Below, in pieces: positions 2 to 13,627 of a stretch of DNA of 64,000 bases. Position 1 is the first letter of the stretch; each line of letters opens with the position of its first letter. The notes below the pieces were generated by a model that saw nothing but the letters and a program-made list of their open reading frames with translations, searched no databases and was not told where the DNA came from. The position numbers were made by a program, and so were the translations under genes. The stretch is from a virus (lineage: Duplodnaviria; Caudoviricetes). The stretch covers positions 1,372 through 65,371 of the IMG/VR virus record IMGVR_UViG_3300017788_000016, one strand, 5' to 3'.

Positions 2-394
2 CAGGCCACGGGTTCTCAGGCCTATGGAGACCACCTTCTATTTCAGCGTCTCTACGAGGCTATTGACCTCGAGATTGACCAGCTTGGTGAAAAGACCGTG
101 GGTCTTGGCGGCAATCCCCTTGTGGACTCTCGTCATGCCCTGGTGAACATGCCAAGGTTCATCAATGCCGTGGAAGAGGGTCTTGTGATTTCCCCGGATG
201 AGTCTCCTGCCCTGGCAAAGGTAAGAAGAAGCCTTCTGGCCGAGCGTTCCTTCATCACAGCGGGCGAAAAGCTGATGAAGATGCTTGAAAGCAAGGGACA
301 ACTCACTCGTGGCGTGGAGAATCTCCTTGGCGGAATCCTTGACACTCACGAGACCCACGTTTACCTTCTAGAACAGAGAAGCAAGACTACCTGA
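2..394 (+). CDS. dps: Dps/ferritin-like DNA-binding protein (5'-truncated by window edge)
   Basis: Frame is open from nt 2 and reads QATGSQAYGDHLLFQRLYEAIDLEIDQLGEKTVGLGGNP...ILDTHETHVYLL. This matches the Dps pattern H-x-x-F-x-x-L-Y...D-x-x-x-E-x-x-x-x-L-G-G-x-P and the C-terminal HEx-H-x-W/Y-x-L helix. Confidence 0.75.
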   Translation, partial: QATGSQAYGDHLLFQRLYEAIDLEIDQLGEKTVGLGGNPLVDSRHALVNMPRFINAVEEGLVISPDESPALAKVRRSLLAERSFITAGEKLMKMLESKGQLTRGVENLLGGILDTHETHVYLLEQRSKTT

Positions 395-737
395 GAGTAC
401 CACCGGAGACCACCTTAAGGTGATCCGAGGGGAACCAGCCAATCTGCTGATAGGCATCCAGAAAAACAGGGAACACGACCACAGTTTCGTTTCCGCCTAG
501 GGATGCTCCCTGGTTTTGAAGGTGGTGCATCTGAAGGCGATGAACCTTGAGGCCATCTCCCTGGATAACACCAGTGCTACCGGTCTTCACGCCACCCATG
601 GACTTAACCACACCGAAACCATCATAGGTTTGCTGGAGGGAACCATCCGGGTTCGTAACTGGAGCATAGACGTGGACTACCTCGTCCTTGTTGATGTGCA
701 TCATGTTCGAAACTATCTGTACTCTATCGCCCTTCAT
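387..737 (-). CDS. hypothetical protein
   Basis: 116-aa ORF; overlaps the upstream ORF in a tightly packed minus-strand run. Confidence 0.55.
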   Translation of the reverse strand: MKGDRVQIVSNMMHINKDEVVHVYAPVTNPDGSLQQTYDGFGVVKSMGGVKTGSTGVIQGDGLKVHRLQMHHLQNQGASLGGNETVVVFPVFLDAYQQIGWFPSDHLKVVSGGTLR

Positions 738-951
738 GTTCTGCTTCCTTTTCTTTGCGCTCCTCTTCCTCCTCTAGGGAGAGCAGCTCAAGATACGTTT
801 TGTTGATGTCTTCTACCCAATGCTGGCATGCCAAACATACCTGCTTATTCCTATGCTTGTCGCAAAAGATTTTGTGAACGTCATAGATGCTATGACATTC
901 CTGAATGCGCTTAATAGTCGCCTCTAGCCGAGTTTTCTTTTCCTGGTTCAT
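724..951 (-). CDS. hypothetical protein (Cys/His-containing, possible Zn binder)
   Basis: 75 aa; ATGA overlap with the groEL stop; C-x-x-H and C-x-x-C motifs. Confidence 0.5.
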   Translation of the reverse strand: MNQEKKTRLEATIKRIQECHSIYDVHKIFCDKHRNKQVCLACQHWVEDINKTYLELLSLEEEEERKEKEAEHEGR

Positions 952-3749
952 TCAACTTCGTTTACAACCACTGAGTTACAGGTTAGAACAAGACCAACAA
1001 CGCTTGAGGCATGCTCCAGGGCGCAGCGGGTCACCTTCACCGGGTCAATGATGCCCTGAGCCACAAGGTCATCGTACTTGCCTAGGGCAGCATTATAACC
1101 ATGGCGGAAGCGTCTGTCGTTTTCGTCAAGGATCGTACCATCCGTGGCGATGGACTGCTTCTTCATCTTGCTCTTGACGCTCTCAATGTAGGAAATGAGG
1201 TCCTCTGGGGCTACATTTCCAACGTCGATGTAGAAAACCTTGTGATCGCCATGGGATTGTACTAGCTTCTCGATGACGATATCCGGGGATACGCCTGTGT
1301 TACCCACAATTGTTCTAAGTGGAGCCTCACATACATTGGCAATCATCTCAATTCCTGAAACTTCGTCTTGTCCGAGACCAAACGTCAACACGGCTTCCTT
1401 GATTTTGTGTCTAAGATCAAGGGCTGCGTAGAAGAGGGCCGTGCCACCACCCGGAACGATTCCTTCCTGGGTGGCTGCCATGGTTGCATTCACGGCATCC
1501 TCAACTCGGTCTTTTTTCTCTAGGATTTCGACCTCTGTGGAACCACCTACCTTAATGACAGCAATACCACCACTGAGCTTGGCTAGACGTTTTCTGGTCT
1601 TGTCAGTGTGAAGAGCATCCAGAGTTCCCTGTTCCAGAAGAGTCCTTAGATTGGCCACTCTTTGCTCCACAGCGGCCTTTTTGTCCTCACCACCGGATCC
1701 AATGATGGTCGCACCACCCCTGCCAACGATTACCTTCTTTGCCGTACCTAGACTGTCTACCCCGGCGTTCTTGATGGACAAATCGGTCGTGGCTCCAAAA
1801 ACAACGCCTCCAACCAGGGTCTGAATGTCAGAGAGAATGTCTGCACGGTGCTCACCGTAGCTAGGAGCCTTGATGGCACAGACCTTGAGGATACCCTTCG
1901 TCTTGTTGACGATAAGGGTGTGAAGGGCATCGCCTTCCACGTCATCTGCAATGATTAGGAGGCTGCGATTGTTCTTTGCGACACCCTCAAGGATCTTGAT
2001 GATATCCTGGATGGACGAAACCTTGTTTGGAGTCAAGAGAACGTAGGGATTGTCAAGTTCACAGGTGGCCTTCTCGGAATTGGTAACGAAGAAGGGGCTG
2101 ACGTAGCCGCCATCCACTTGCATGCCTTCCACAACCTCCAGGGTCGTCTGAACGCTCTTTGCGGGCTCGATGGTAATGATACCATCCTTGCCAACCTTCT
2201 GAATGGCTGTGGCAATTAGCTCACCAATGGAGCGATCCCCATTGGCCGAGATTGTGCCAACGTTCACAATGTCTTCCACGGAGCTTACAGGAATCTTTCT
2301 TTGCTTGAGGAATTCCAGCACCTCAGCGGTTCCAATGTCCATTCCCTTTTTGAGTCCAATTGAGGAGCGGTTGGTGGAAATCATCTTGATTCCCTCGGAC
2401 AACATGGCTCTGCCCAACACAGTGGCTGTTGTGGTGTTGTGTGTTGGTACATAGTCATTAGTGATGTAAAGATGATCACTGTTGCTAACCTTGATGCACA
2501 TCATTTCTGTCTTTTCACCAAGCTTCTCTATGCCTTTGAGCCTCAAACCATACCTGTTCCCTTTCAGTTCACAAATTCTGTGTATGATTCCAGTTCCAAA
2601 GGACCCATCATTTTCTTTTCTATGATATGCTTTATGATATACCGATTTGCCCAGGCTTTTGCACAGCTCGATAAAATCACGGCAAAGCTGATCGCTTGCC
2701 GTACTGTATTCAAAAAGACCTTTCTTGTTGACGTATCCGTCAGTGTCAATTAGTCCCTGAAGTAGACGGTTACGAGTATCGATGGAAGAAAACAGGTATT
2801 GCTTCGGAATGAACTTGTTACGACTGTTTGTCCCAAGCAATCCGAGGTCGGTCAAATGAGTTTTTATCACCGACTTCAAACCTACTGGCTTACGGTTCTT
2901 TCGTTCGCTGCCTGTGATTGTCGCTTTAATATAGTGCTTGTTGTCACGATAGAATTGTTTTCTGAGCTTTGTTCCGGTTGGTAGAATCAAATTATCGAGC
3001 ATGTGCTCTTGATGTAGTCCCACAGCGATTTCTACATCATGCATGAAAGACAGGCTTCCATCTCCGAGCAGAACGCCCAGCAGATATGGATCAATCGGAA
3101 TCTCTGTATTCGACGCAAATTCTACAACTGTAGGTTTGATGAAGTATTTGCCGCCCCCGTGGCCGCTTCTTTCGACTCCATTTTCCAACAATTGCTTCGT
3201 TGTTAGCGTTTTTTTGCAGCCACGCAGGGTTGTGACGCTCCATAGATGCTCTTCGCTACATTCCACAAAACGACTGTCTGTGTTTCCATCTGAGAAAGTG
3301 ACCTTGTAGATATCTTTTATGCCTTTGTTGTAAACGCCAAGAACACTTTGCACGGTTCCGTTTGTCCCACAAATAGCATCTCCAACCCTTAGACTTCCTA
3401 GGTTGGTCCACCCTTTGGGTGTTAAAACCTTGGCATAGGTTGGTTGCGGCCCATCGCCAGCAATTTCATTCGTCTTACCAGCAATTTCCTTGAGAAGCTC
3501 TGCTCCCATGGACTGGAGTCTGTCTCGGAGCTTGATGGAACGAGCCACCGTCACACCATCCTTGGTGATTTGAGGAGGCCCGGTTTCCATGTCAATGATA
3601 ACCGAGTGACCGCTTGGTCCCATGGTGCTCGCCACTGCGTCCGCAAGGATGTTGGCTCCCTTTAGAAGCTCATCGTGGGCCCTTGGGGCAAACACAACCG
3701 TTTGCGTGGGTTCATCAACAAACGTAGAAGGCTGCTTTGTCTTTGTCAT
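948..3749 (-). CDS. groEL: phage chaperonin GroEL (Cpn60) with an intein and a portal-clip-like insertion
   Basis: Motifs [81 protein letters not shown] and [10 protein letters not shown]. About 595 aa after intein removal; no GGM tail. Confidence 0.97.
2436..3449 (-). mobile_element. class-3-type intein (Pro1, WCT signature) with LAGLIDADG endonuclease in GroEL
   Basis: 338 aa between AGDG and TTTATVL. Starts [14 protein letters not shown]; block B ECSEEHLW; blocks F/G MMCIKV...YVPTHN; Thr+1. LAGLIDADG motifs [11 protein letters not shown] and [11 protein letters not shown]. Confidence 0.93.
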
Positions 3750-4608: not shown

Positions 4609-5049
4609 TCAGTTCCTTTTCTTCGAGGACTTCTTCGCCTCGTGTTCCTCAATCTTGCTCTCTTTTTGCTTTTGTGCAGCGGCCTGCAAGGCAGGTGCCT
4701 TGGAGAACACCTTGTCCAGGATCTTCTTGCCTTCTGTCTGGGCTAGCTTGAGAGGCTGCATACCAACGGCCACTCTAACCATGTCGTTGATTTCTGGTGG
4801 GAGTTTCTCCTTGAGAAACTCCATGTCAATGTATTTGTGGGGGATCTGATCCACGACCTCGGCTTCTCTTCCCTGATCGTCCGGTTCTGTTTCTCCGGTG
4901 TGATGGTACTCGAAGATGAAAAGGACCGGTGGCATCTTCTTGTCCTTCTGTACCTCGATATAGGGGAATGGAATTGCCTTGGCGTCTGCGGAGGATGGTT
5001 CCTCGTAAAGGATTACAGGGATTTCGTACTTCTCTTGTTCGTTGCTCAT
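4609..5049 (-). CDS. hypothetical protein
   Basis: 146 aa; ATGA overlap with the upstream ORF; phage-like codon usage. Confidence 0.7.
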   Translation of the reverse strand: MSNEQEKYEIPVILYEEPSSADAKAIPFPYIEVQKDKKMPPVLFIFEYHHTGETEPDDQGREAEVVDQIPHKYIDMEFLKEKLPPEINDMVRVAVGMQPLKLAQTEGKKILDKVFSKAPALQAAAQKQKESKIEEHEAKKSSKKRN

Positions 5050-5369
5050 TTTTTCATTCCGTGTTTGATCATTGCTAGAATCTCGCCCGCCGCAGTGCTC
5101 ATAGTGTGTCTGGCGTAGGACTCGTTGATAACAATATTGTACAACTCCATCTGTTTGTTTGAGTCTGGATGAATTTCGTAGATATTGATCCCGGTGTCTC
5201 CTGAGGTGACAGGGCAGAAGAGAACCATGCAGGGAGCATTCAGGTGGTCCTCAAAAATCTCCTGTTTGAACGTCCCCCTGATGTGCTCAATTTGTTCTGC
5301 AAAATGCGTGGGACTTAGATTGCCCATTGGGACGTTGAAGACGATGACATAGGCCTTGAGATGGCCCAT
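5046..5369 (-). CDS. small protein resembling a stand-alone portal clip domain
   Basis: VFNVPMGNLSPTHFAEQIEHIRGTFK...LFCPVTSGDTGINI aligns by eye with portal [26 protein letters not shown]...YFLPVRGNQTGTKI. ATG at 5369 follows GAGG; an alternative GTG start lies at 5396. Confidence 0.55.
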   Translation of the reverse strand: MGHLKAYVIVFNVPMGNLSPTHFAEQIEHIRGTFKQEIFEDHLNAPCMVLFCPVTSGDTGINIYEIHPDSNKQMELYNIVINESYARHTMSTAAGEILAMIKHGMKK

Positions 5370-5392
5370 GGCCTCGCCTTCCTCGGTCTCAG

Positions 5393-5656
5393 TCACAGGT
5401 TCTCTTTCCGCTCAAGAATCTCTACGAAGGTATCGAAAGTGTCCTTATAGCCGACCTTCTTCTTGATCTTCACGGTTCTCATGGCCGCCTGAAGGGTCTT
5501 AATGTCGAGCTTGTCCGAAAACTCCTCAATGAGTTCCTTCTGGTCCTCCTTGAGGGTCTCGATCTCGTGCTCGATGACCTTGAAACGCTCTATAAACTGA
5601 TCCACCAACTCGGTAAGCTCACCAATTTCGTCTGGCTGACGCTCTGCTGCATCCAT
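5393..5656 (-). CDS. GapR/DUF2312-like (T4 DsbA-like) dsDNA-binding protein
   Basis: LVDQFIERFKVIEHEIETLKEDQKELIEE...LDIKTLQAAMRTVKIKKK fits the GapR coiled-coil plus D-x-K-x-L...K pattern; ATG at 5656 follows AAGGA. Confidence 0.65.
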   Translation of the reverse strand: MDAAERQPDEIGELTELVDQFIERFKVIEHEIETLKEDQKELIEEFSDKLDIKTLQAAMRTVKIKKKVGYKDTFDTFVEILERKENL

Positions 5657-7231: not shown

Positions 7232-7807
7232 ATGAGACAGACCATCGGACTAATCGCAGGCGGCTTCAAGCCTCTCACTCGTGGACACTGGGCGCTTATT
7301 GAGAAGGCCTCAAATGAATGTGACTTGGTTCACTTAGTCATTTCAAGCAAGGATAGAGAGCGTCCAGGCGAGCTGCCAATTCGATGGGAACAGATGGGTA
7401 AGGTTTGGAATGAGTTCATCGTTCCTCGACTCCCTAAGAACGTCAAGGCCACTTTTTCAAGTGCTCCAATCCGAAACATAATGGACATTCTCATTTCTGC
7501 CAATGCAGACGAGAACAATCTCAACACCTATTTCATCTACTCGGATCCGGCCGACATTGCTGCAAACTACCCAGACCGTGCTCGTGAGAAGTACATGAAG
7601 AGACTTCTGGGTAATGATCAGATCGTGTTCAAGGAAATTGAACGCACAGGCGGAAACAACATTTCCGGTACGATCATGAGGAAGCACATTGCCGATGGCG
7701 ACCTAAAGTCCTTCATCGCAGGCCTACCTGGCCCGGTTCAGATGTTTGGACCTGAGATTTTCCGAATCCTTGGCGGAACGATTCCCTCTAAGGCAAAGCC
7801 TAGCTAG
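7232..7807 (+). CDS. HIGH-motif nucleotidyltransferase (cytidylyltransferase-like)
   Basis: IGLIAGGFKPLTRGHWALI (HxGH-type motif) and C-terminal ISGTIMRKHI. Confidence 0.8.
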   Translation: MRQTIGLIAGGFKPLTRGHWALIEKASNECDLVHLVISSKDRERPGELPIRWEQMGKVWNEFIVPRLPKNVKATFSSAPIRNIMDILISANADENNLNTYFIYSDPADIAANYPDRAREKYMKRLLGNDQIVFKEIERTGGNNISGTIMRKHIADGDLKSFIAGLPGPVQMFGPEIFRILGGTIPSKAKPS

Positions 7808-9244: not shown

Positions 9245-12200
9245 TTGGCCAACAACGATTCTTTCTTCAACAGGCTCACGAGACTCTTTAGGTCTGGGCC
9301 TTCCATTCAGAGGCGTGTCAAGGGCTACGACTATCGGACCTACTATGACAACGACATAATCAGGGGTAACTATGGATACAGGGCACCCTTTCCCTTTGGA
9401 CGAGAGAGTTCTCCATTCTCGGTGCTTGGAGCCTATGGTATCCTTGACCGAATGGCCCGTTACAGCGAGTTTGCTGAGATGGAGTGGTGTCTTCATGAAG
9501 ATACAAAAATTGCTGTTCCCGGTGGCTATAAGACCATAAAAGAATTGGCAGAAGAATATGGGACAGACAAGGAGTTCACTGTCTACTCATATGACCACGC
9601 AAAGAAGAAGATTGTTCCTGCGGTTGGTAAGCAGGCAAGACTAACGAGGCACGATCATGCCTGGCGTGTTGTTTTTGACAGCGGCAAGGAAATAATTGGA
9701 ACGGCCGACCACAGATTGCTTAGGCGAGATGGAACCTACAGTACCATCGCAGACCTAAGGCCTGGTGATGCTATGATGCCTTTCTATCGACGTTCGGTGG
9801 GTACAGACAGAACAGAGAATCGGACCAACCAATATCAGACAATATATTCCATTTCAAGGGAAGACAGCAGATATGGATGGATCGCAGAACATCGCCTTCT
9901 AGCCGAACATGTTCTGGGTCGCAAGCTCAAGGCAAATGAAGTTGTTCACCACAAGAACTTTCTTGCCAATGATAACCGTCTAGAAAATCTTGAGGTCATG
10001 ACAGAAACCGAGCATCGGCATCTACATGCCGCTGTTCTTAATGGCAAAAAATGGAGTGCCACCAGCAATGGAGAATGGATTGCCAAATTTAGGAAAAATC
10101 ACTCTGAGTGGATGAAAAAGAACAATCCGGCAGAGAGAAAAGACGTTACTTTTGCAAAAGTGCTGCAGTGGTGTGATGCCAACGGCTTCAATTTGTATCG
10201 AGTTGCAAAGGCCTTCGATGTATGCCATGAAACTGTTATCAGCAGAGTTAAGGCAAATGGATTCTCAAGTTTCGAAGATTTCGCAAAGGCCTATAGACCA
10301 ACTTGGAAAAGTGAAAGCTGGGACAATGAGGGTTCCAAAAATCCTAGGTACCGAAAGGATATCTCGTACCAAGGCATTTGCAATGCCTACTCAAAAGGAA
10401 TTAGCAAAAGGCAGCTAGCCAAAAGTCTTGGCTGTTCTTCTGTTCCAATCGAAAAAAGGCTTAAGGCAGAAGGGTATGCCTCCTGGACAGAATTCGTCAA
10501 CTCTTACGAGAATCACAAAGTAGTAAAGGTTGAGTATTACGGGCACATTCCGCTATATGACCTTACTGTGGATGGCTACAAAAACTTTGCCACCGACAGC
10601 GTCATTTCCCACAATACTCCCGAGATTGCGGCTGCCCTAAACATTTTCGCTGATGAGACAGTTTCTGGTGACGAAAAGGGGAAGGCCCTCCACCTCTACT
10701 CCAAAAACCCCGAGGTCAAGAAGGCCCTCGAGGAACTGTACTATGACATTCTGAACATCGACTTCAACCTGAGGCCCTGGGTAAGAAACCTCGTGAAGTA
10801 CGGTGACTTCTTTCTCTACAACGAGATCATCCCAGACATTGGTTTCGTTAACGTCCAACCAATCCCTGTGAATGAGCTTGAGAGAGAAGAAGGCTTCGAC
10901 AGGGATGACCCATACTCCATTAGATACAAGTGGCTAACCAGGGGTAACCGCTATCTTGAAAACTGGCAGGTCACCCACATGAGAATGCTAGGAAACGACC
11001 TGTTCCTTCCCTATGGCACCTGTCACGAGAAGACCACCAAGGTTCTAACCTCCTCAGGTATTAAGGAGATACAGCACATAGTGCCTGGCGACGTGGTTCT
11101 CTCTTTTGATCTCAAGTCGCAGAAAAAAGTCAAGTCACCAGTGTTGGGCGTCAAAAATTCAGGCTTCAAGAACTGTTTTGAATTTAGAACCAGACACAAT
11201 TTCCTTAGAACTTCCAAGGAACATCAAATACTTGTATGGGATTCTTCTAGAGAGAAATTTGACTACAAAAGTGCTGGTGAGCTTCGGCTGGGTGACAAGC
11301 TTGTGATCAGCAAAGAGCACAAAATAGAAAATTCCAAGATCAAGATAGACAAAACCGCCCCTTCGGGCATTAACAAGAATGGCTATTGGAACAGTGTTTC
11401 TAATATTCCAGATGAGGTCACACCAGATTTCGCTCGCTTGTTTGGTTTTTTGATGGGCGATGGATGGATTACTGGCAATCAGGTCTTTTTTGCTAATGGC
11501 ATTGACCTCAAACAAAACGAACGCTATTCTCTGTTGCTTGAAAAATTCTCTGGAAAGAAGGCAAACTCTGAGTGCCGCCAAGGCACGCAGACTGTGCTCT
11601 CCTCAAAAATGTTTGGTGAGATCCTGAAACGAATGGGATTTGCTGGCAAGGCAACCACCAAAAGAGTTCCTTCTTGGGTTTTTGGAGCTTCTGAGGATCT
11701 CCGTCTTGCTTTCCTGGAGGGATTTCATGATGCAGATGGTAGCTCTTTTGTTGATAAGTGGAATTGCGAACGCCGCACCTTTGAGCTATCCAATTATGAC
11801 TTGATTAAGGACCTCAAGGCCCTTGCCCAGACGCTTGGCTTCAAAACAGGCAAGATAACAGAAAGAAAGTCTAGAACATTTGCAACTGGAATTGAGGAAA
11901 ACGGTTCTTTCCGCTCGTTCAAAACCGTTAGCCCTTCCTATGTGTTTTATTGGTTTGCAGCACAAAACAAGCAAGTTAAAAAGCATGATGTGACCAATAG
12001 AGTTTCTGACGATTTCCTAATTGAGCCAATTGTGGCGATACAAAACGTTGGGGAACACGAAACCTACGACATTTACGTCCAGGACAACAACCACAATTTC
12101 TTTGCCAACGGCATTGTCACCCACAATTCCCTTTTGGAACCTGCCAGAAGAATCTGTATGCAGCTAAGAATGGCTGAGGATCACATGTTGCTCTATCGCG

Positions 12201-13627
12201 TGGTAAGATCCCCAGAGAGACGTGTGTTCTATATCGACGTTGGTAACGTTGCCCCAAATGACGTTCCTGCCTACATGGAAGCTGTTAAGCAGACTCTCCG
12301 TGCAAAGGACTTGGTTGACAAGTCCACCGGACGCATCGACCAGAGAAACAACTCGGTTTCCATCATCGATGACTACTTCCTGCCTGTGAGAGGTAATCAG
12401 ACCGGCACAAAGATCGATACCCTGGCTGGTGGTCAGAATGCCACAGCCGTTGAGGACGTAAAGTATCTCCAGCAGAAGCTCTTTGCGGCTCTACAGGTTC
12501 CAAAGCCCTACCTTAACTTCGATGAAAACCTTTCGGCAAAGGCCAGCTTGGCCCAGCAGGACATTAGGTTCTCCAGAACCGTGTCTATTCTCCAGAGGGT
12601 CATCATTGCAGAGCTTAACAAGATGGGCATGATCCACCTCTATGCCAGAGGCTTTGACGGCGAGGACCTCATCAACTTTGAGTTGCGCCTGAGCAACCCT
12701 TCTACTGTGGCAATGCAACAGAAACTTGAGGCCATTGCAACCAAGTTCGAAATTGCTGGTGCTGCAAAGGAAACCAAGCTGGTAGACGAGGACTGGATTC
12801 AGAGAAAGGTTCTTGAGCTAACCGAGGATGAAATCATCAAAATTGAGGCGGGCCGCAGGAGAGACAAGATCCGTGAGGTAGAAATCGAGGCGGTGTCGGT
12901 TGCTGAGAATCTTCCAAAGCCAGATGCCACCATCGATCCTTTCCATCCTTCCAATTATCAGATAGGTGGTGGAGACGTGGCAAAGAATCCCCCGGTGGAG
13001 CAGCCTGCGCAAACCGTCATGGGAATTGGAACCCCATCCCCTGCTGGTGGCGGAGCCCCACTTGGACAGCCCCAAGCCCCTCAGGGTCCAGCTCTGGGTG
13101 CCCCAATTTCGGCTACTCCTTTCGCCTCTAGACAAAAGGAAAAGAAATCCCGAAGGGTTGGTCTTGGCGGGCGCAACAACCTTTCCATGCCTGACTTCTC
13201 CTCAATGCTCTCATCCAAGAACCGCTCCCTTACTGACGTATACGATAGCGAGACCATAAATCTCAGACAGTCCATTACCGAGGACATTGAGCTTGACATT
13301 AGGTCTGCTCCTTTCCTACCAAATGAAATGCGGTCCATCTTCAAGACCCTGGATACGCACTTCGAGAAGAACTACGCCAATGTGTCAGGACAGAGAAAGC
13401 TTCTCAGGGAGCTAAAGGAGCAGGTTCCAACAATCGACTTCGAGTTGACCGACGACGCCGACGAGGATGAGAAGTCCTCTGACGACTCCGAGCGTGAGGA
13501 TTCCGAGGATTCCTTGCTGACGGAAACCCTTGAGGGCGTGATCAAGAAGGATGAGGAGGCCTCTGAGGACCCACCTGAGAACACCCCTAGGAAGCTGACC
13601 GATATCGATCTTTCGACTTTGGACTGA
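9245..13627 (+). CDS. portal protein (T4 gp20-like) with two inteins
   Basis: Extein motifs [74 protein letters not shown] and DVKYLQQKLFAALQVPK; TTG start. Confidence 0.95.
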   Translation: MANNDSFFNRLTRLFRSGPSIQRRVKGYDYRTYYDNDIIRGNYGYRAPFPFGRESSPFSVLGAYGILDRMARYSEFAEMEWCLHEDTKIAVPGGYKTIKELAEEYGTDKEFTVYSYDHAKKKIVPAVGKQARLTRHDHAWRVVFDSGKEIIGTADHRLLRRDGTYSTIADLRPGDAMMPFYRRSVGTDRTENRTNQYQTIYSISREDSRYGWIAEHRLLAEHVLGRKLKANEVVHHKNFLANDNRLENLEVMTETEHRHLHAAVLNGKKWSATSNGEWIAKFRKNHSEWMKKNNPAERKDVTFAKVLQWCDANGFNLYRVAKAFDVCHETVISRVKANGFSSFEDFAKAYRPTWKSESWDNEGSKNPRYRKDISYQGICNAYSKGISKRQLAKSLGCSSVPIEKRLKAEGYASWTEFVNSYENHKVVKVEYYGHIPLYDLTVDGYKNFATDSVISHNTPEIAAALNIFADETVSGDEKGKALHLYSKNPEVKKALEELYYDILNIDFNLRPWVRNLVKYGDFFLYNEIIPDIGFVNVQPIPVNELEREEGFDRDDPYSIRYKWLTRGNRYLENWQVTHMRMLGNDLFLPYGTCHEKTTKVLTSSGIKEIQHIVPGDVVLSFDLKSQKKVKSPVLGVKNSGFKNCFEFRTRHNFLRTSKEHQILVWDSSREKFDYKSAGELRLGDKLVISKEHKIENSKIKIDKTAPSGINKNGYWNSVSNIPDEVTPDFARLFGFLMGDGWITGNQVFFANGIDLKQNERYSLLLEKFSGKKANSECRQGTQTVLSSKMFGEILKRMGFAGKATTKRVPSWVFGASEDLRLAFLEGFHDADGSSFVDKWNCERRTFELSNYDLIKDLKALAQTLGFKTGKITERKSRTFATGIEENGSFRSFKTVSPSYVFYWFAAQNKQVKKHDVTNRVSDDFLIEPIVAIQNVGEHETYDIYVQDNNHNFFANGIVTHNSLLEPARRICMQLRMAEDHMLLYRVVRSPERRVFYIDVGNVAPNDVPAYMEAVKQTLRAKDLVDKSTGRIDQRNNSVSIIDDYFLPVRGNQTGTKIDTLAGGQNATAVEDVKYLQQKLFAALQVPKPYLNFDENLSAKASLAQQDIRFSRTVSILQRVIIAELNKMGMIHLYARGFDGEDLINFELRLSNPSTVAMQQKLEAIATKFEIAGAAKETKLVDEDWIQRKVLELTEDEIIKIEAGRRRDKIREVEIEAVSVAENLPKPDATIDPFHPSNYQIGGGDVAKNPPVEQPAQTVMGIGTPSPAGGGAPLGQPQAPQGPALGAPISATPFASRQKEKKSRRVGLGGRNNLSMPDFSSMLSSKNRSLTDVYDSETINLRQSITEDIELDIRSAPFLPNEMRSIFKTLDTHFEKNYANVSGQRKLLRELKEQVPTIDFELTDDADEDEKSSDDSEREDSEDSLLTETLEGVIKKDEEASEDPPENTPRKLTDIDLSTLD
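9488..10615 (+). mobile_element. portal intein 1 with HNH endonuclease
   Basis: 376 aa, CLHEDTKI...FATDSVISHN, Thr+1. Block B GTADHRLL; HNH motif EHRLLAE...VVHHKNFLANDNRLENLEVM...H. Confidence 0.93.
11021..12127 (+). mobile_element. portal intein 2 with LAGLIDADG endonuclease
   Basis: 369 aa, CHEKTTKVLT...FFANGIVTHN, Ser+1. Block B TSKEHQIL; motifs LFGFLMGDGW and FLEGFHDADGS. Confidence 0.93.

What the first reader, a model, noticed from the sequence alone, without database searches (positions are those of the whole stretch)
1107..1238. Phage GroEL carries a grafted copy of the portal clip segment
Seen: where canonical GroEL has a short loop before GYNAA (equatorial domain), this GroEL has a ~44-aa insert, [44 protein letters not shown]. 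The portal at 12224 reads [26 protein letters not shown]: 11 consecutive identities and 16 of 26 overall. Over the 11 identical codons, 5 differ at synonymous third positions and none is non-synonymous, consistent with an older, selected graft rather than an assembly artefact. Established: RRxFYIDxGN is the conserved start of the clip region of T4 gp20-family portals; the clip makes inter-subunit beta contacts and engages the terminase and neck. Inference: the chaperonin ring may display clip elements to recruit or template portal subunits, dock at the prohead vertex, or bind terminase. I know of no described chaperonin-portal chimera.
Basis: partly seen in the sequence, partly recalled or inferred. 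Interest (0 to 1): 0.92.

Follow-up and report, generated by a model that had tools for sequence, protein, structure and literature searches.

The report
Portal clip piece inside phage GroEL
A phage chaperonin gene carries an old, conserved copy of the tip of the phage's own portal protein, the part that binds the DNA-packaging motor in phage T4, probably on the outside of its ring; I found no description of this, and its function is untested.

Summary
GroEL (948-3749, minus strand) has 46 extra residues between helix Q and the GYNAA hairpin. 44 of them (1107-1238) match the portal at 12224: 11 consecutive identities, 16 of 26, and 5 synonymous, 0 non-synonymous differences in the first 11 codons.

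It is not an artefact and not private to this phage.
- 83 of the 120 best-scoring metagenomic GroEL relatives carry a K-x-F-Y-x-D type insert at the same site.
- A GroEL profile built without the window matches a portal profile (hhalign 90.4%, E 1.4e-6). GroELs without the insert do not (0.09%).
- The segment corresponds to T4 gp20 ~284-325: first clip strand, tip and helix alpha6. This includes peptide 288-311, reported to bind terminase gp17.
- The site (E. coli 474/475) is next to Asp473, on the outer equatorial surface.
- The insert is under purifying selection. It does not track the cognate portal, and its tip varies across the clade.

A family of free-standing clip-domain proteins also exists, with one member at 5046-5396.

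The scan's notes hold no earlier case on other DNA. Origin and display are well supported. Function is inferred only: a docking or bracing element.

The parts
948..3749 (-). Phage group I chaperonin (GroEL) gene, 933 aa including one intein
   Evidence: ORF list and translation. Pfam Cpn60_TCP1 179.7 bits against a cut-off of 34.3. phmmer to solved GroELs, E 3e-39.
1107..1238 (-). Portal-clip-derived insert, GroEL residues 838-881: extended segment VFYIDV, tip GNVAP, helix 848-864, short hairpin
   Evidence: AF2 secondary structure and pLDDT of 58-81 over this stretch.
1251..1286 (-). Helix Q equivalent (residues 822-833), directly upstream of the insert and retained here
   Evidence: AF2 helix 822-833. 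Aligned to solved GroEL residues up to 474.
1086..1106 (-). RHGYNAA, start of the nucleotide-site beta hairpin directly downstream of the insert (residues 882-888)
   Evidence: Alignment to solved GroELs resumes here. G884, Y885 and A887 are invariant in 61 GroELs.
2436..3449 (-). LAGLIDADG intein (residues 101-438) splitting the GDG|TTT motif. Not part of the graft, but it must be spliced out for the chaperonin to form.
   Evidence: Translation. Pfam LAGLIDADG_3 and Hom_end. Relatives of 575-600 aa lack it.
9245..13627 (+). T4 gp20-type portal gene with two inteins, divergently oriented about 5.5 kb from GroEL
   Evidence: Translation. Pfam Portal_T4 222 bits, Intein_splicing, HNH_3 and LAGLIDADG_3. 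phmmer to T4 gp20 structures, E 6e-25.
12224..12355 (+). Portal segment homologous to the GroEL insert (residues 994-1037; T4 gp20 about 284-327): first clip strand, tip, helix alpha6, next hairpin
5046..5396 (-). Free-standing clip-domain-like small protein (116 aa) in the groEL operon; a third clip-type sequence in the window
   Evidence: Family alignment A6 against the portal profile: hhalign 98.8%, E 4.7e-17, 57 columns. AF2 pLDDT 81.9.

Best explanation
What it is (confidence about 0.9). It is an in-frame, inherited copy of the first ~44 residues of a T4-type portal clip domain: first strand, tip turn, helix alpha6 and the start of the next hairpin (T4 gp20 ~284-325). It was captured long ago from a portal gene, or less likely from a free-standing clip-domain gene. 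The capture site is the loop between helix Q and the GYNAA hairpin of a phage chaperonin (E. coli GroEL 474/475). Portals everywhere have this segment and GroELs outside this clade do not, so the direction is portal to GroEL. [quoted passage not shown] A double ring would therefore carry 14 copies around its waist, outside the folding chamber.

How it works (inferred, confidence about 0.35-0.4). The piece keeps the strand and the amphipathic helix but lacks the later clip strands that complete the clip sheet. It is therefore an exposed 'half clip'. I propose that it is a docking handle that binds a clip-type partner by beta-strand addition. The most likely partner is the clip of an unassembled portal protomer, which would tether the portal to a chaperonin encoded next to it during portal-ring assembly.

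Shown: homology, insertion site, age, purifying selection and clade distribution. Inferred: outward display in the assembled ring, strand pairing and the identity of the partner.
For: Homology
- 11 consecutive identities against 4-6 in 300 shuffles; BLASTP E 1e-8.
- The insert alone hits only Pfam Portal_T4, positions 208-245, E 0.0019.
- 22 GroELs without the window against 44 portals: hhalign 90.4%, E 1.4e-6. The control of 20 GroELs lacking the insert gives 0.09%, E 0.58.
- 23 of 120 inserts score above the best of 2400 shuffles against a clip HMM.

Age and selection
- 83 of 120 relatives carry the insert type, in two clades with SH-aLRT 98 and 99. A single origin is not rejected (AU p 0.114).
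- Synonymous sites are saturated while close pairs show pN 0.03 against pS 0.77-0.89.

Site
- The insert lies between solved-GroEL residues 474 and 475.

Half clip
- The AF2 monomer gives helix 848-864 (pLDDT ~80) and leaves VFYIDVGN unpaired.
- In the AF2 model of the full mini-clip protein the equivalent strand (15-23) is modelled as a strand alongside three further strands.

Link to the portal
- In all 13 of the 80 fetched loci where a portal was found within 10 kb, it lies upstream of groEL on the opposite strand.
- The lambda portal needs GroES/EL (PMC3224144).
- Free-standing clip-domain proteins exist in the same operon in the window and in L006.
Against: - No co-variation with the cognate portal in 7 genomes. 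A further 14 GroEL/portal pairs matched only by equal contig length show none either.
- The tip residues (GNVAP here) are replaced in most of the clade, for example by TENADV, SNTNK or SQLTSL. The right half of the insert varies in length. Only the strand and helix are conserved, which fits a fold constraint as well as a binding one.
- Sister lineages carry unrelated inserts of similar size, or a short loop, at the same site. The site may simply be permissive.
- I had no coordinates of the model and no ring model, so outward display is inferred from E. coli GroEL.
- Which clip strand is donated between portal subunits is shown in a supplementary figure that I could not read.
Confidence: 0.45

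Rival explanations
1. Exapted structural brace. The captured strand-helix unit has no portal-related partner. It packs in cis against the neighbouring GYNAA hairpin, or pairs with copies of itself between rings or between neighbouring subunits. It would then remodel or strengthen the equatorial contacts of this phage chaperonin, as insertions in the same region do in the phage EL chaperonin.
For: - Only the strand and the amphipathic helix are conserved; exposed tip residues drift.
- Sister lineages have unrelated inserts of about the same size at the same site, suggesting a generic structural need or tolerance.
- The insert does not track the portal.
- In phage EL the region following this part of the equatorial domain (loop 479-503, which replaces helix Q) makes the ring-ring contacts (PMC7185714, passages).
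- In the alignment to solved GroELs, the EEPSV stretch at the start of helix Q reads VSPDI here. That stretch holds ring-ring contact residues of E. coli GroEL; this is recalled, not from a call.
Against: - The AF2 monomer does not pair the strand with the adjacent hairpin.
- Several deep sub-branches (the window, P0005-P0008, P0011, P0056, P0066) keep near-portal sequence, including the tip, despite saturated synonymous sites. A generic brace does not explain this.
- Helix Q is kept here, unlike in EL.
- The VSPD/KSPD motif is shared by relatives with and without the insert, so it does not correlate with the insert.
Confidence: 0.33
2. Terminase or neck tether or decoy. The displayed tip and helix alpha6 mimic the portal surface that binds large terminase (gp17) and later the neck adaptor (gp13). 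The chaperonin would hold, fold or sequester one of these proteins.
For: - The insert covers the equivalent of T4 gp20 288-311. This 24-aa peptide is reported to bind gp17 and inhibit packaging, and N291, M292, R295 and K296 at the clip tip are the proposed gp17 contacts (PMC4493910, passages).
- In the window the tip GNVAP is identical to its own portal. The following ED matches 45 of 117 portals at the first of these positions.
- The clip binds gp17 and then gp13 (PMC9958956, passages).
Against: - The tip is invariant in 117 portals (G 112, N 103, P 116 of 117) but is not conserved in most GroEL inserts. A tip-mediated function cannot be the clade-wide one.
- TerL is absent from the 65-kb record, so nothing could be tested.
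Confidence: 0.12
3. Assembly chimera, or chance or convergent similarity.
For: Both genes lie in one metagenomic contig only about 8 kb apart. The record is a fragment (CheckV 18% complete).
Against: - 83 of the 120 best relatives from independent assemblies have the insert at the same site.
- 9 runs of 9 studies hold the stretch.
- Contigs from 3 runs not flagged as the source bridge the 1238 junction, and no indels were reported.
- 5 synonymous differences in 11 codons exclude a duplicated read stretch.
- The shuffle and profile controls exclude chance.
Confidence: 0.01

Closest known systems
Phage EL chaperonin gp146 (PMC7185714; passages read)
   Same: A phage-encoded GroEL-type chaperonin whose equatorial domain is remodelled by insertions around helix Q and the segment before the nucleotide-site hairpin. 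That region sets the ring-ring contacts.
   Different: In EL, helix Q is replaced by a loop (479-503). Here helix Q is kept and 46 residues are added after it. The passages I read name no origin for the EL insertions. The best phage-record match to the window's GroEL tail is 38.6% identical, and the aligned region is about 50 residues shorter.
Virioplankton GroELs (PMC5649160; term counts and passages read)
   Same: Uncultured aquatic phage GroELs, grouped by the presence and order of a GroES gene.
   Different: The main text has 0 occurrences of 'insertion', 'insert', 'intein' or 'equatorial', and 1 of 'portal'. The feature is not described there. Supplements were not seen.
T4 gp20 portal clip and its gp17-binding peptide 288-311 (PMC4493910; passages read)
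   Same: Homologous sequence: the window's portal V994 corresponds to gp20 V284, so the insert equals gp20 ~284-325.
   Different: In the portal the segment is part of a three-strand clip sheet within a dodecamer. In GroEL only the first strand, tip, helix and a short hairpin are present, inside a chaperonin subunit.
Engineered GroEL D473C carrying a His6 peptide (PMC1885994; passages read)
   Same: A foreign peptide displayed at essentially the same loop, on the outer equatorial surface, without loss of folding function.
   Different: A chemical, artificial 6-residue tag, against a natural, encoded and selected 44-residue domain fragment.
Free-standing clip-domain small proteins
   Same: They carry the same portal-derived motif (WYIDVGNV-P-DVP-YM...YFIPVR). 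One member sits in the window's groEL operon and one in L006.
   Different: They hold the whole clip, including the later strands, as an 85-125 aa protein. The GroEL insert holds only the first part. The GroEL insert profile matches portals slightly better (90.4%) than these proteins (80.7%).

Membership tests
Group I chaperonin Cpn60/GroEL (PF00118) | Profile match over the curated cut-off across equatorial, intermediate and apical domains | tested here: met
   179.7 bits against a cut-off of 34.3, in 2 stretches because of the intein. E 3e-39 to solved GroELs over the C-terminal 250 aa.
Group I chaperonin Cpn60/GroEL (PF00118) | Nucleotide-site motifs: GDGTTT (P-loop), GGG and the GYNAA hairpin | tested here: met
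   AGDG | intein | TTTATVL, VPGGG and HGYNAA are read in the translation and are invariant in 61 relatives. GDGTTT is intact only after intein splicing, which was not tested.
Group I chaperonin Cpn60/GroEL (PF00118) | Heptameric ring or double-ring assembly and ATP-driven folding | not testable with these tools
T4 gp20-type portal (PF07230), clip domain | Profile match over the curated cut-off | tested here: not met
   The insert alone scores 17.4 bits and the whole GroEL 13.5 bits, against a cut-off of 22.9. It is a 44-residue fragment of a 433-position model. 5 of 61 GroELs hit at E <= 1. So it is a piece of a portal, not a portal.
T4 gp20-type portal (PF07230), clip domain | Homology of the segment to the clip start by profile-profile comparison, with a control | tested here: met
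   hhalign 90.4%, E 1.4e-6 over 33 columns. Control GroELs without the insert: 0.09%.
T4 gp20-type portal (PF07230), clip domain | Complete clip: three strands plus helix alpha6 (gp20 279-358) | tested here: not met
   The insert ends before the DDYFLPVRG...GTKIDTL strands. The right half is variable or deleted in relatives.
Phage EL-type chaperonin | Helix Q replaced by a loop that makes 1:1 ring-ring contacts | tested here: not met
   AF2 keeps helix 822-833, which aligns to helix Q of solved GroELs. The geometry of ring contacts is not testable.
Intein (as an alternative reading of the insert) | Hint/splicing blocks and a nucleophile at +1 | tested here: not met
   No intein family hits the 44-aa insert. 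At 44 aa it is too short. The insert is conserved as GroEL-linked protein sequence.

The most novel reading that the evidence does not exclude
The GroEL insert and the free-standing mini-clip proteins are two forms of one strategy, portal-clip mimicry. The phage displays the exposed tip of its portal on a chaperonin (14 copies) and as a soluble small protein. These copies would capture proteins or protomers that recognise the clip: unassembled portal subunits, large terminase, the neck adaptor, or a host sensor of portal proteins. This would make the chaperonin a dedicated portal-vertex assembly or packaging-control factor rather than a general folding machine.
Probability: 0.25. Interest if true: 0.85.

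Novelty: new variant of a known kind. Interest (0 to 1): 0.62.

Why it matters
Phage-encoded chaperonins are known, but what they fold and how they find their clients is largely open.

This clade has fixed the solvent-exposed, partner-binding end of the portal on a surface of the chaperonin that plays no part in the canonical folding cycle. It has kept that piece under purifying selection.

If the piece docks portal protomers or clip-binding proteins, it would be a natural example of client targeting by a grafted fragment of a structural protein. It would link the chaperonin mechanistically to portal-vertex assembly, a link known genetically for lambda.

If it is only a brace, it still shows that a permissive GroEL loop, already used by experimenters for tags, is used by evolution to take up foreign domain fragments.

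The free-standing clip-domain family is a separate lead for regulators of packaging.

Tried and rejected
- Complex prediction: GroEL 822-886 against the portal stem-clip-stem piece (130 aa). Score 0.00, below the mark of 0.32; the tool's verdict is 'no answer'. The partner's own fold was uncertain. I do not count this for or against binding.
- Model coordinates: neither AF2 model's coordinates were available to scripts. The position of the insert in 3D could not be measured and is inferred from the literature.
- Foldseek of the mini-clip model against PDB: no hit at E <= 0.001, only weak thioredoxin-like rows (TM 0.24-0.48). This is uninformative, because the clip is a small sub-domain of large portal chains.
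- ESM Atlas search for the window's small ORF: no usable hit by features, and a low-confidence Atlas model.
- Word-index search with the two small ORFs: it returned only the two proteins themselves. The exhaustive phmmer search was needed to find the family.
- Pfam on 10 mini-clip proteins: Portal_T4 in 1 of 10 (E 0.003).
- Phage-record searches: no close cultured relative. All 205 matches are below 60% identity, and there was no nucleotide match for 12 kb.
- TerL search in the window's record: none. The record is a 65-kb fragment, so terminase could not be tested.
- RNA evidence: no RNA holder listed.
- PMC9965216 was read in case it concerned insertions at this loop. It does not.
- My first regex classification of inserts misfiled several members. 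I replaced it with clade membership from the trees.
- I considered reading the L006-type insert (ISLKKKRKMD...) as a diverged clip. It scores about 0-3 bits against the clip HMM, so I rejected this.
- The 18-column match between the GroEL P-loop and portal GTKIDTLAGG in the control (E 0.58) is judged to be chance.
- Supplements of PMC4493910 (which strand is exchanged between portal subunits) and of PMC5649160 could not be seen.
Full report
**1. The observation**

The ORF at 948..3749 (minus strand) translates to a 933-aa GroEL. Its GDG|TTT motif is split by a LAGLIDADG intein at residues 101-438.

The portal ORF is 9245..13627 (+). It encodes 1460 aa and holds two inteins. It reads [26 protein letters not shown] from nt 12224, which is residue 994.

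A codon-by-codon comparison gives:
- 11 consecutive identities and 16 of 26 overall;
- in the first 11 codons, 6 identical codons, 5 synonymous third-position differences and 0 non-synonymous differences.

The longest peptide shared by the two proteins is 11 residues, against 4-6 in 300 of 300 shuffles. BLASTP gives E 1e-8.

phmmer against all solved structures aligns the GroEL tail to bacterial and mitochondrial GroELs on both sides of the segment. It leaves residues 836-881 without a counterpart, between chain residue 474 and the start of the GYNAA hairpin.

**2. Not an artefact and not unique**

Nine runs from nine studies, all freshwater or freshwater-sediment metagenomes, hold the stretch. 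Contigs of three runs not flagged as the possible source bridge the 1238 junction. The 1107 junction is bridged with at least 31 nt on each side only by a contig of the possible source run; one other contig crosses it with 28 nt. No indel or joint was reported.

More decisive is a search of 5.8 billion proteins with GroEL residues 740-933. It returned 6331 hits, of which I examined the best 120 (119 relatives plus the window's own protein). This list is biased towards insert-bearing proteins, because the query contained the insert.
- 83 of the 120 carry a [KR]-x-F-Y-[IV]-D strand followed by an acidic, amphipathic helix at the same site. They form 'clade I' with 59 members, including the window, and a second 'NW' clade with 24.
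- The other 37 have unrelated inserts or a short loop.

Among the 80 IMG/VR loci fetched with a GroEL alignment:
- 6 plus the window have the clip-like insert;
- 6 have unrelated long inserts;
- 65 have a short, canonical-length loop;
- 2 of the remaining 3 could not be read, and I did not class the third.

No cultured phage in the phage-record collection is closer than 38.6% identity over the tail, and those alignments are about 50 residues shorter. The window's record is a 65-kb fragment rated 18% complete. Relatives sit on contigs of up to 343 kb. This suggests a jumbo T4-like phage, which is an inference.

**3. Homology to the portal clip**

- The 44-aa insert alone hits one Pfam family, Portal_T4 (positions 208-245, E 0.0019), below the gathering score. 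5 of 61 GroEL relatives hit it at E <= 1.
- An HMM of the clip region from 14 portals of this phage group scores the window's insert at 38.9 bits. 23 of 120 inserts score above the best of 2400 shuffles, which was 10.6 bits.
- A profile of 22 insert-bearing GroELs that excludes the window matches a profile of 44 portals at 90.4% probability, E 1.4e-6, over 33 columns.
- The same comparison with 20 GroELs lacking the clip-like insert gives 0.09%, E 0.58.

phmmer to the T4 gp20 structures maps portal V994 to gp20 V284. PMC4493910 (passages read) states the following:
- The clip is residues 279-358, made of three strands and helix alpha6, and is exposed outside the capsid.
- Tip residues N291, M292, R295 and K296 probably contact gp17.
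- A 24-aa peptide, 288-311, binds gp17 and inhibits packaging.

The insert therefore equals gp20 ~284-325: first strand, tip, alpha6 and the beginning of the next hairpin. It lacks the later strands (DDYFLPVRG...GTKIDTL in the window's portal).

The direction of transfer is portal to GroEL. The segment is near-invariant in 117 portals fetched here and is present in T4. GroELs outside this clade, and all solved GroELs, lack it.

**4. Age, selection and tracking**

An IQ-TREE of 74 GroELs, built with the insert columns removed, recovers clade I (SH-aLRT 98) and the NW clade (99). A tree holding the two together is not rejected (AU p 0.114). One origin is therefore possible but not shown.

Highly portal-like inserts occur in several sub-branches of clade I: the window, P0005-P0008, P0011 and P0056/P0066. 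The last pair even keeps the portal's RR before the strand. This pattern fits a very portal-like ancestor with uneven later drift.

Between close pairs the 26-codon core has pN 0.03 against pS 0.77-0.89 (L002-L010, L003-L004). Between distant pairs pN is 0.22-0.44 with saturated pS. The adjacent GYNAA region shows pN 0.08-0.18 over the same distances. The insert is thus under purifying selection, more relaxed than the catalytic core.

The insert does not track its own portal:
- The window's insert is 16/26 identical to its own portal and 18/26 to those of L002-L004.
- Nucleotide identity is 0.64 to its own portal against 0.58-0.67 to the others.
- 14 further GroEL/portal pairs, matched only by equal contig length, show no shared substitutions.

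There is no sign of ongoing gene conversion.

**5. Where it sits**

Using the 1aon offset, the insert lies between E. coli residues 474 and 475.

[quoted passage not shown] Function and structure were unchanged.

PMC7185714 (passages) reports that in phage EL, helix Q (462-471) is replaced by a loop (479-503) that makes the ring-ring contacts just before the nucleotide-site hairpin.

In the AF2 model of the window's protein (mean pLDDT 69):
- helix Q is kept (822-833);
- residues 834-847, including VFYIDVGN, have no regular structure (pLDDT 69-79);
- 848-864 is a helix (pLDDT about 80);
- 865-875 is a low-confidence hairpin;
- the GYNAA strand follows.

I had no coordinates. That 14 copies sit on the outside of the waist of a double ring is an inference from the E. 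coli data.

**6. A third context for the clip**

Between the homologues of two conserved operon genes, only the window (5046-5396, 116 aa) and L006 (8508-8837, 109 aa) carry a small extra ORF. The other 11 comparable loci do not.

- The L006 protein hits every portal in my loci by tblastn (E 3e-9 to 4e-4).
- An exhaustive phmmer search of 1.84 billion representatives found 19 hits, 17 of them proteins of 85-125 aa.
- Their alignment has the consensus K-YI--WYIDVG-V-P-DVP-YM---K ... YFIPVR---T-LEI-EF.
- That alignment matches the portal profile at 98.8%, E 4.7e-17, over 57 columns, which is the whole clip.
- AF2 models the window's member with pLDDT 81.9. The first strand (15-23) is modelled as a strand, followed by three further strands at 56-63, 69-75 and 84-89.

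Free-standing clip domains therefore exist. In them the first strand has the later clip strands as possible cis partners, and the GroEL insert lacks those strands. The GroEL insert profile matches portals slightly better than it matches these small proteins (90.4% against 80.7%).

**7. Mechanism**

Shown: origin, site, age, selection and distribution.

Inferred: the insert is an exposed half clip on the outside of the chaperonin.

My preferred reading (about 0.35-0.4) is a docking handle that pairs by strand addition with a clip-type partner. The most plausible partner is an unassembled portal protomer. The reasons are:
- In all 13 loci where a portal was found within 10 kb, it lies upstream of groEL on the opposite strand.
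- The clip strand exchange is what zips portal subunits together.
- The lambda portal needs GroES/EL (PMC3224144).
- Clip mimics recur in this operon.

The main rival (about 0.33) is a purely structural brace. It is supported by drift of the tip, a variable right half, unrelated inserts in sister lineages and the EL precedent.

A terminase or neck tether (about 0.12) fits the window's portal-identical tip but not the clade.

**8. Comparison with what is known, and novelty**

Searches of the paper library and term counts in the virioplankton chaperonin paper found no description of a portal-derived insert in a chaperonin. The scan's own notes hold no earlier case on other DNA.

I class it as a new variant of a known kind: a phage group I chaperonin with a captured portal-clip fragment. 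It is a member of the Cpn60 family. It is not a member of the portal family, because the fragment falls below the Pfam cut-off and the clip is incomplete.

**9. Limits**

- There is no ring model and there are no coordinates.
- There is no terminase in the record.
- The single complex job gave no verdict.
- Supplements of the papers were not available.
- E. coli residue roles other than Asp473 are recalled, not taken from a call.

Noticed in passing
window 5046-5396 (-); L006 8508-8837 (+): A free-standing clip-domain protein family. There are 17 small representatives (85-125 aa) in the 1.84-billion-protein library. hhalign to the portal profile gives 98.8%, E 4.7e-17, over the whole clip. The gene is an accessory, present in 2 of 13 comparable loci (counting the window). 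It has no Pfam or PHROGs family.
   Followed up: partly
window 2436-3449 (-): The GroEL intein splits GDG|TTT. It starts with Pro, ends THN before Thr, and has LAGLIDADG and Hom_end hits. About 13 of the 120 GroEL relatives are long enough (847-933 aa) to hold an intein as well.
   Followed up: partly
window 2436-3449 (-) versus 11018-12127 (+): The GroEL intein and the portal's second (LAGLIDADG) intein are related: 77/326 identical, E 2e-4. The two head-assembly genes that share the clip segment therefore also share an intein lineage.
   Followed up: no
window 9488-12127 (+): The portal carries two inteins, one with an HNH domain and one with LAGLIDADG (Pfam). Several portals of relatives also carry Intein_splicing and HNH_3 domains.
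   Followed up: partly
P0095 (GroEL relative), same loop: A different lineage fills the same GroEL loop with a Cys-rich segment (C-x2-C-x-C ... C-x2-C) that looks like a zinc ribbon. Other lineages have ISLKKKRKMD...WENPLLP or helical inserts, and three relatives have a short loop. The loop is a hotspot for lineage-specific insertions.
   Followed up: no
window 387-737 (-) and 724-951 (-): The two small ORFs downstream of groEL have no Cpn10/GroES hit in Pfam, and 387-737, the only one of the two scanned in PHROGs, has none there either. No co-chaperonin was recognised next to this GroEL.
   Followed up: partly
window 7232-7807 (+): A nucleotidyltransferase-like ORF (Citrate_ly_lig C-terminal domain, E 8e-9) sits between the groEL operon and the portal, on the opposite strand to the operon.
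   Followed up: no
GroEL residues ~88-101 versus portal residues ~1052-1069: In the negative-control hhalign, the GroEL P-loop stretch (KTN-LAGDGTTTAT) aligned to the portal's GTKI-TLAGGQ-ATA over 18 columns at E 0.58. I judge this to be chance.
   Followed up: no
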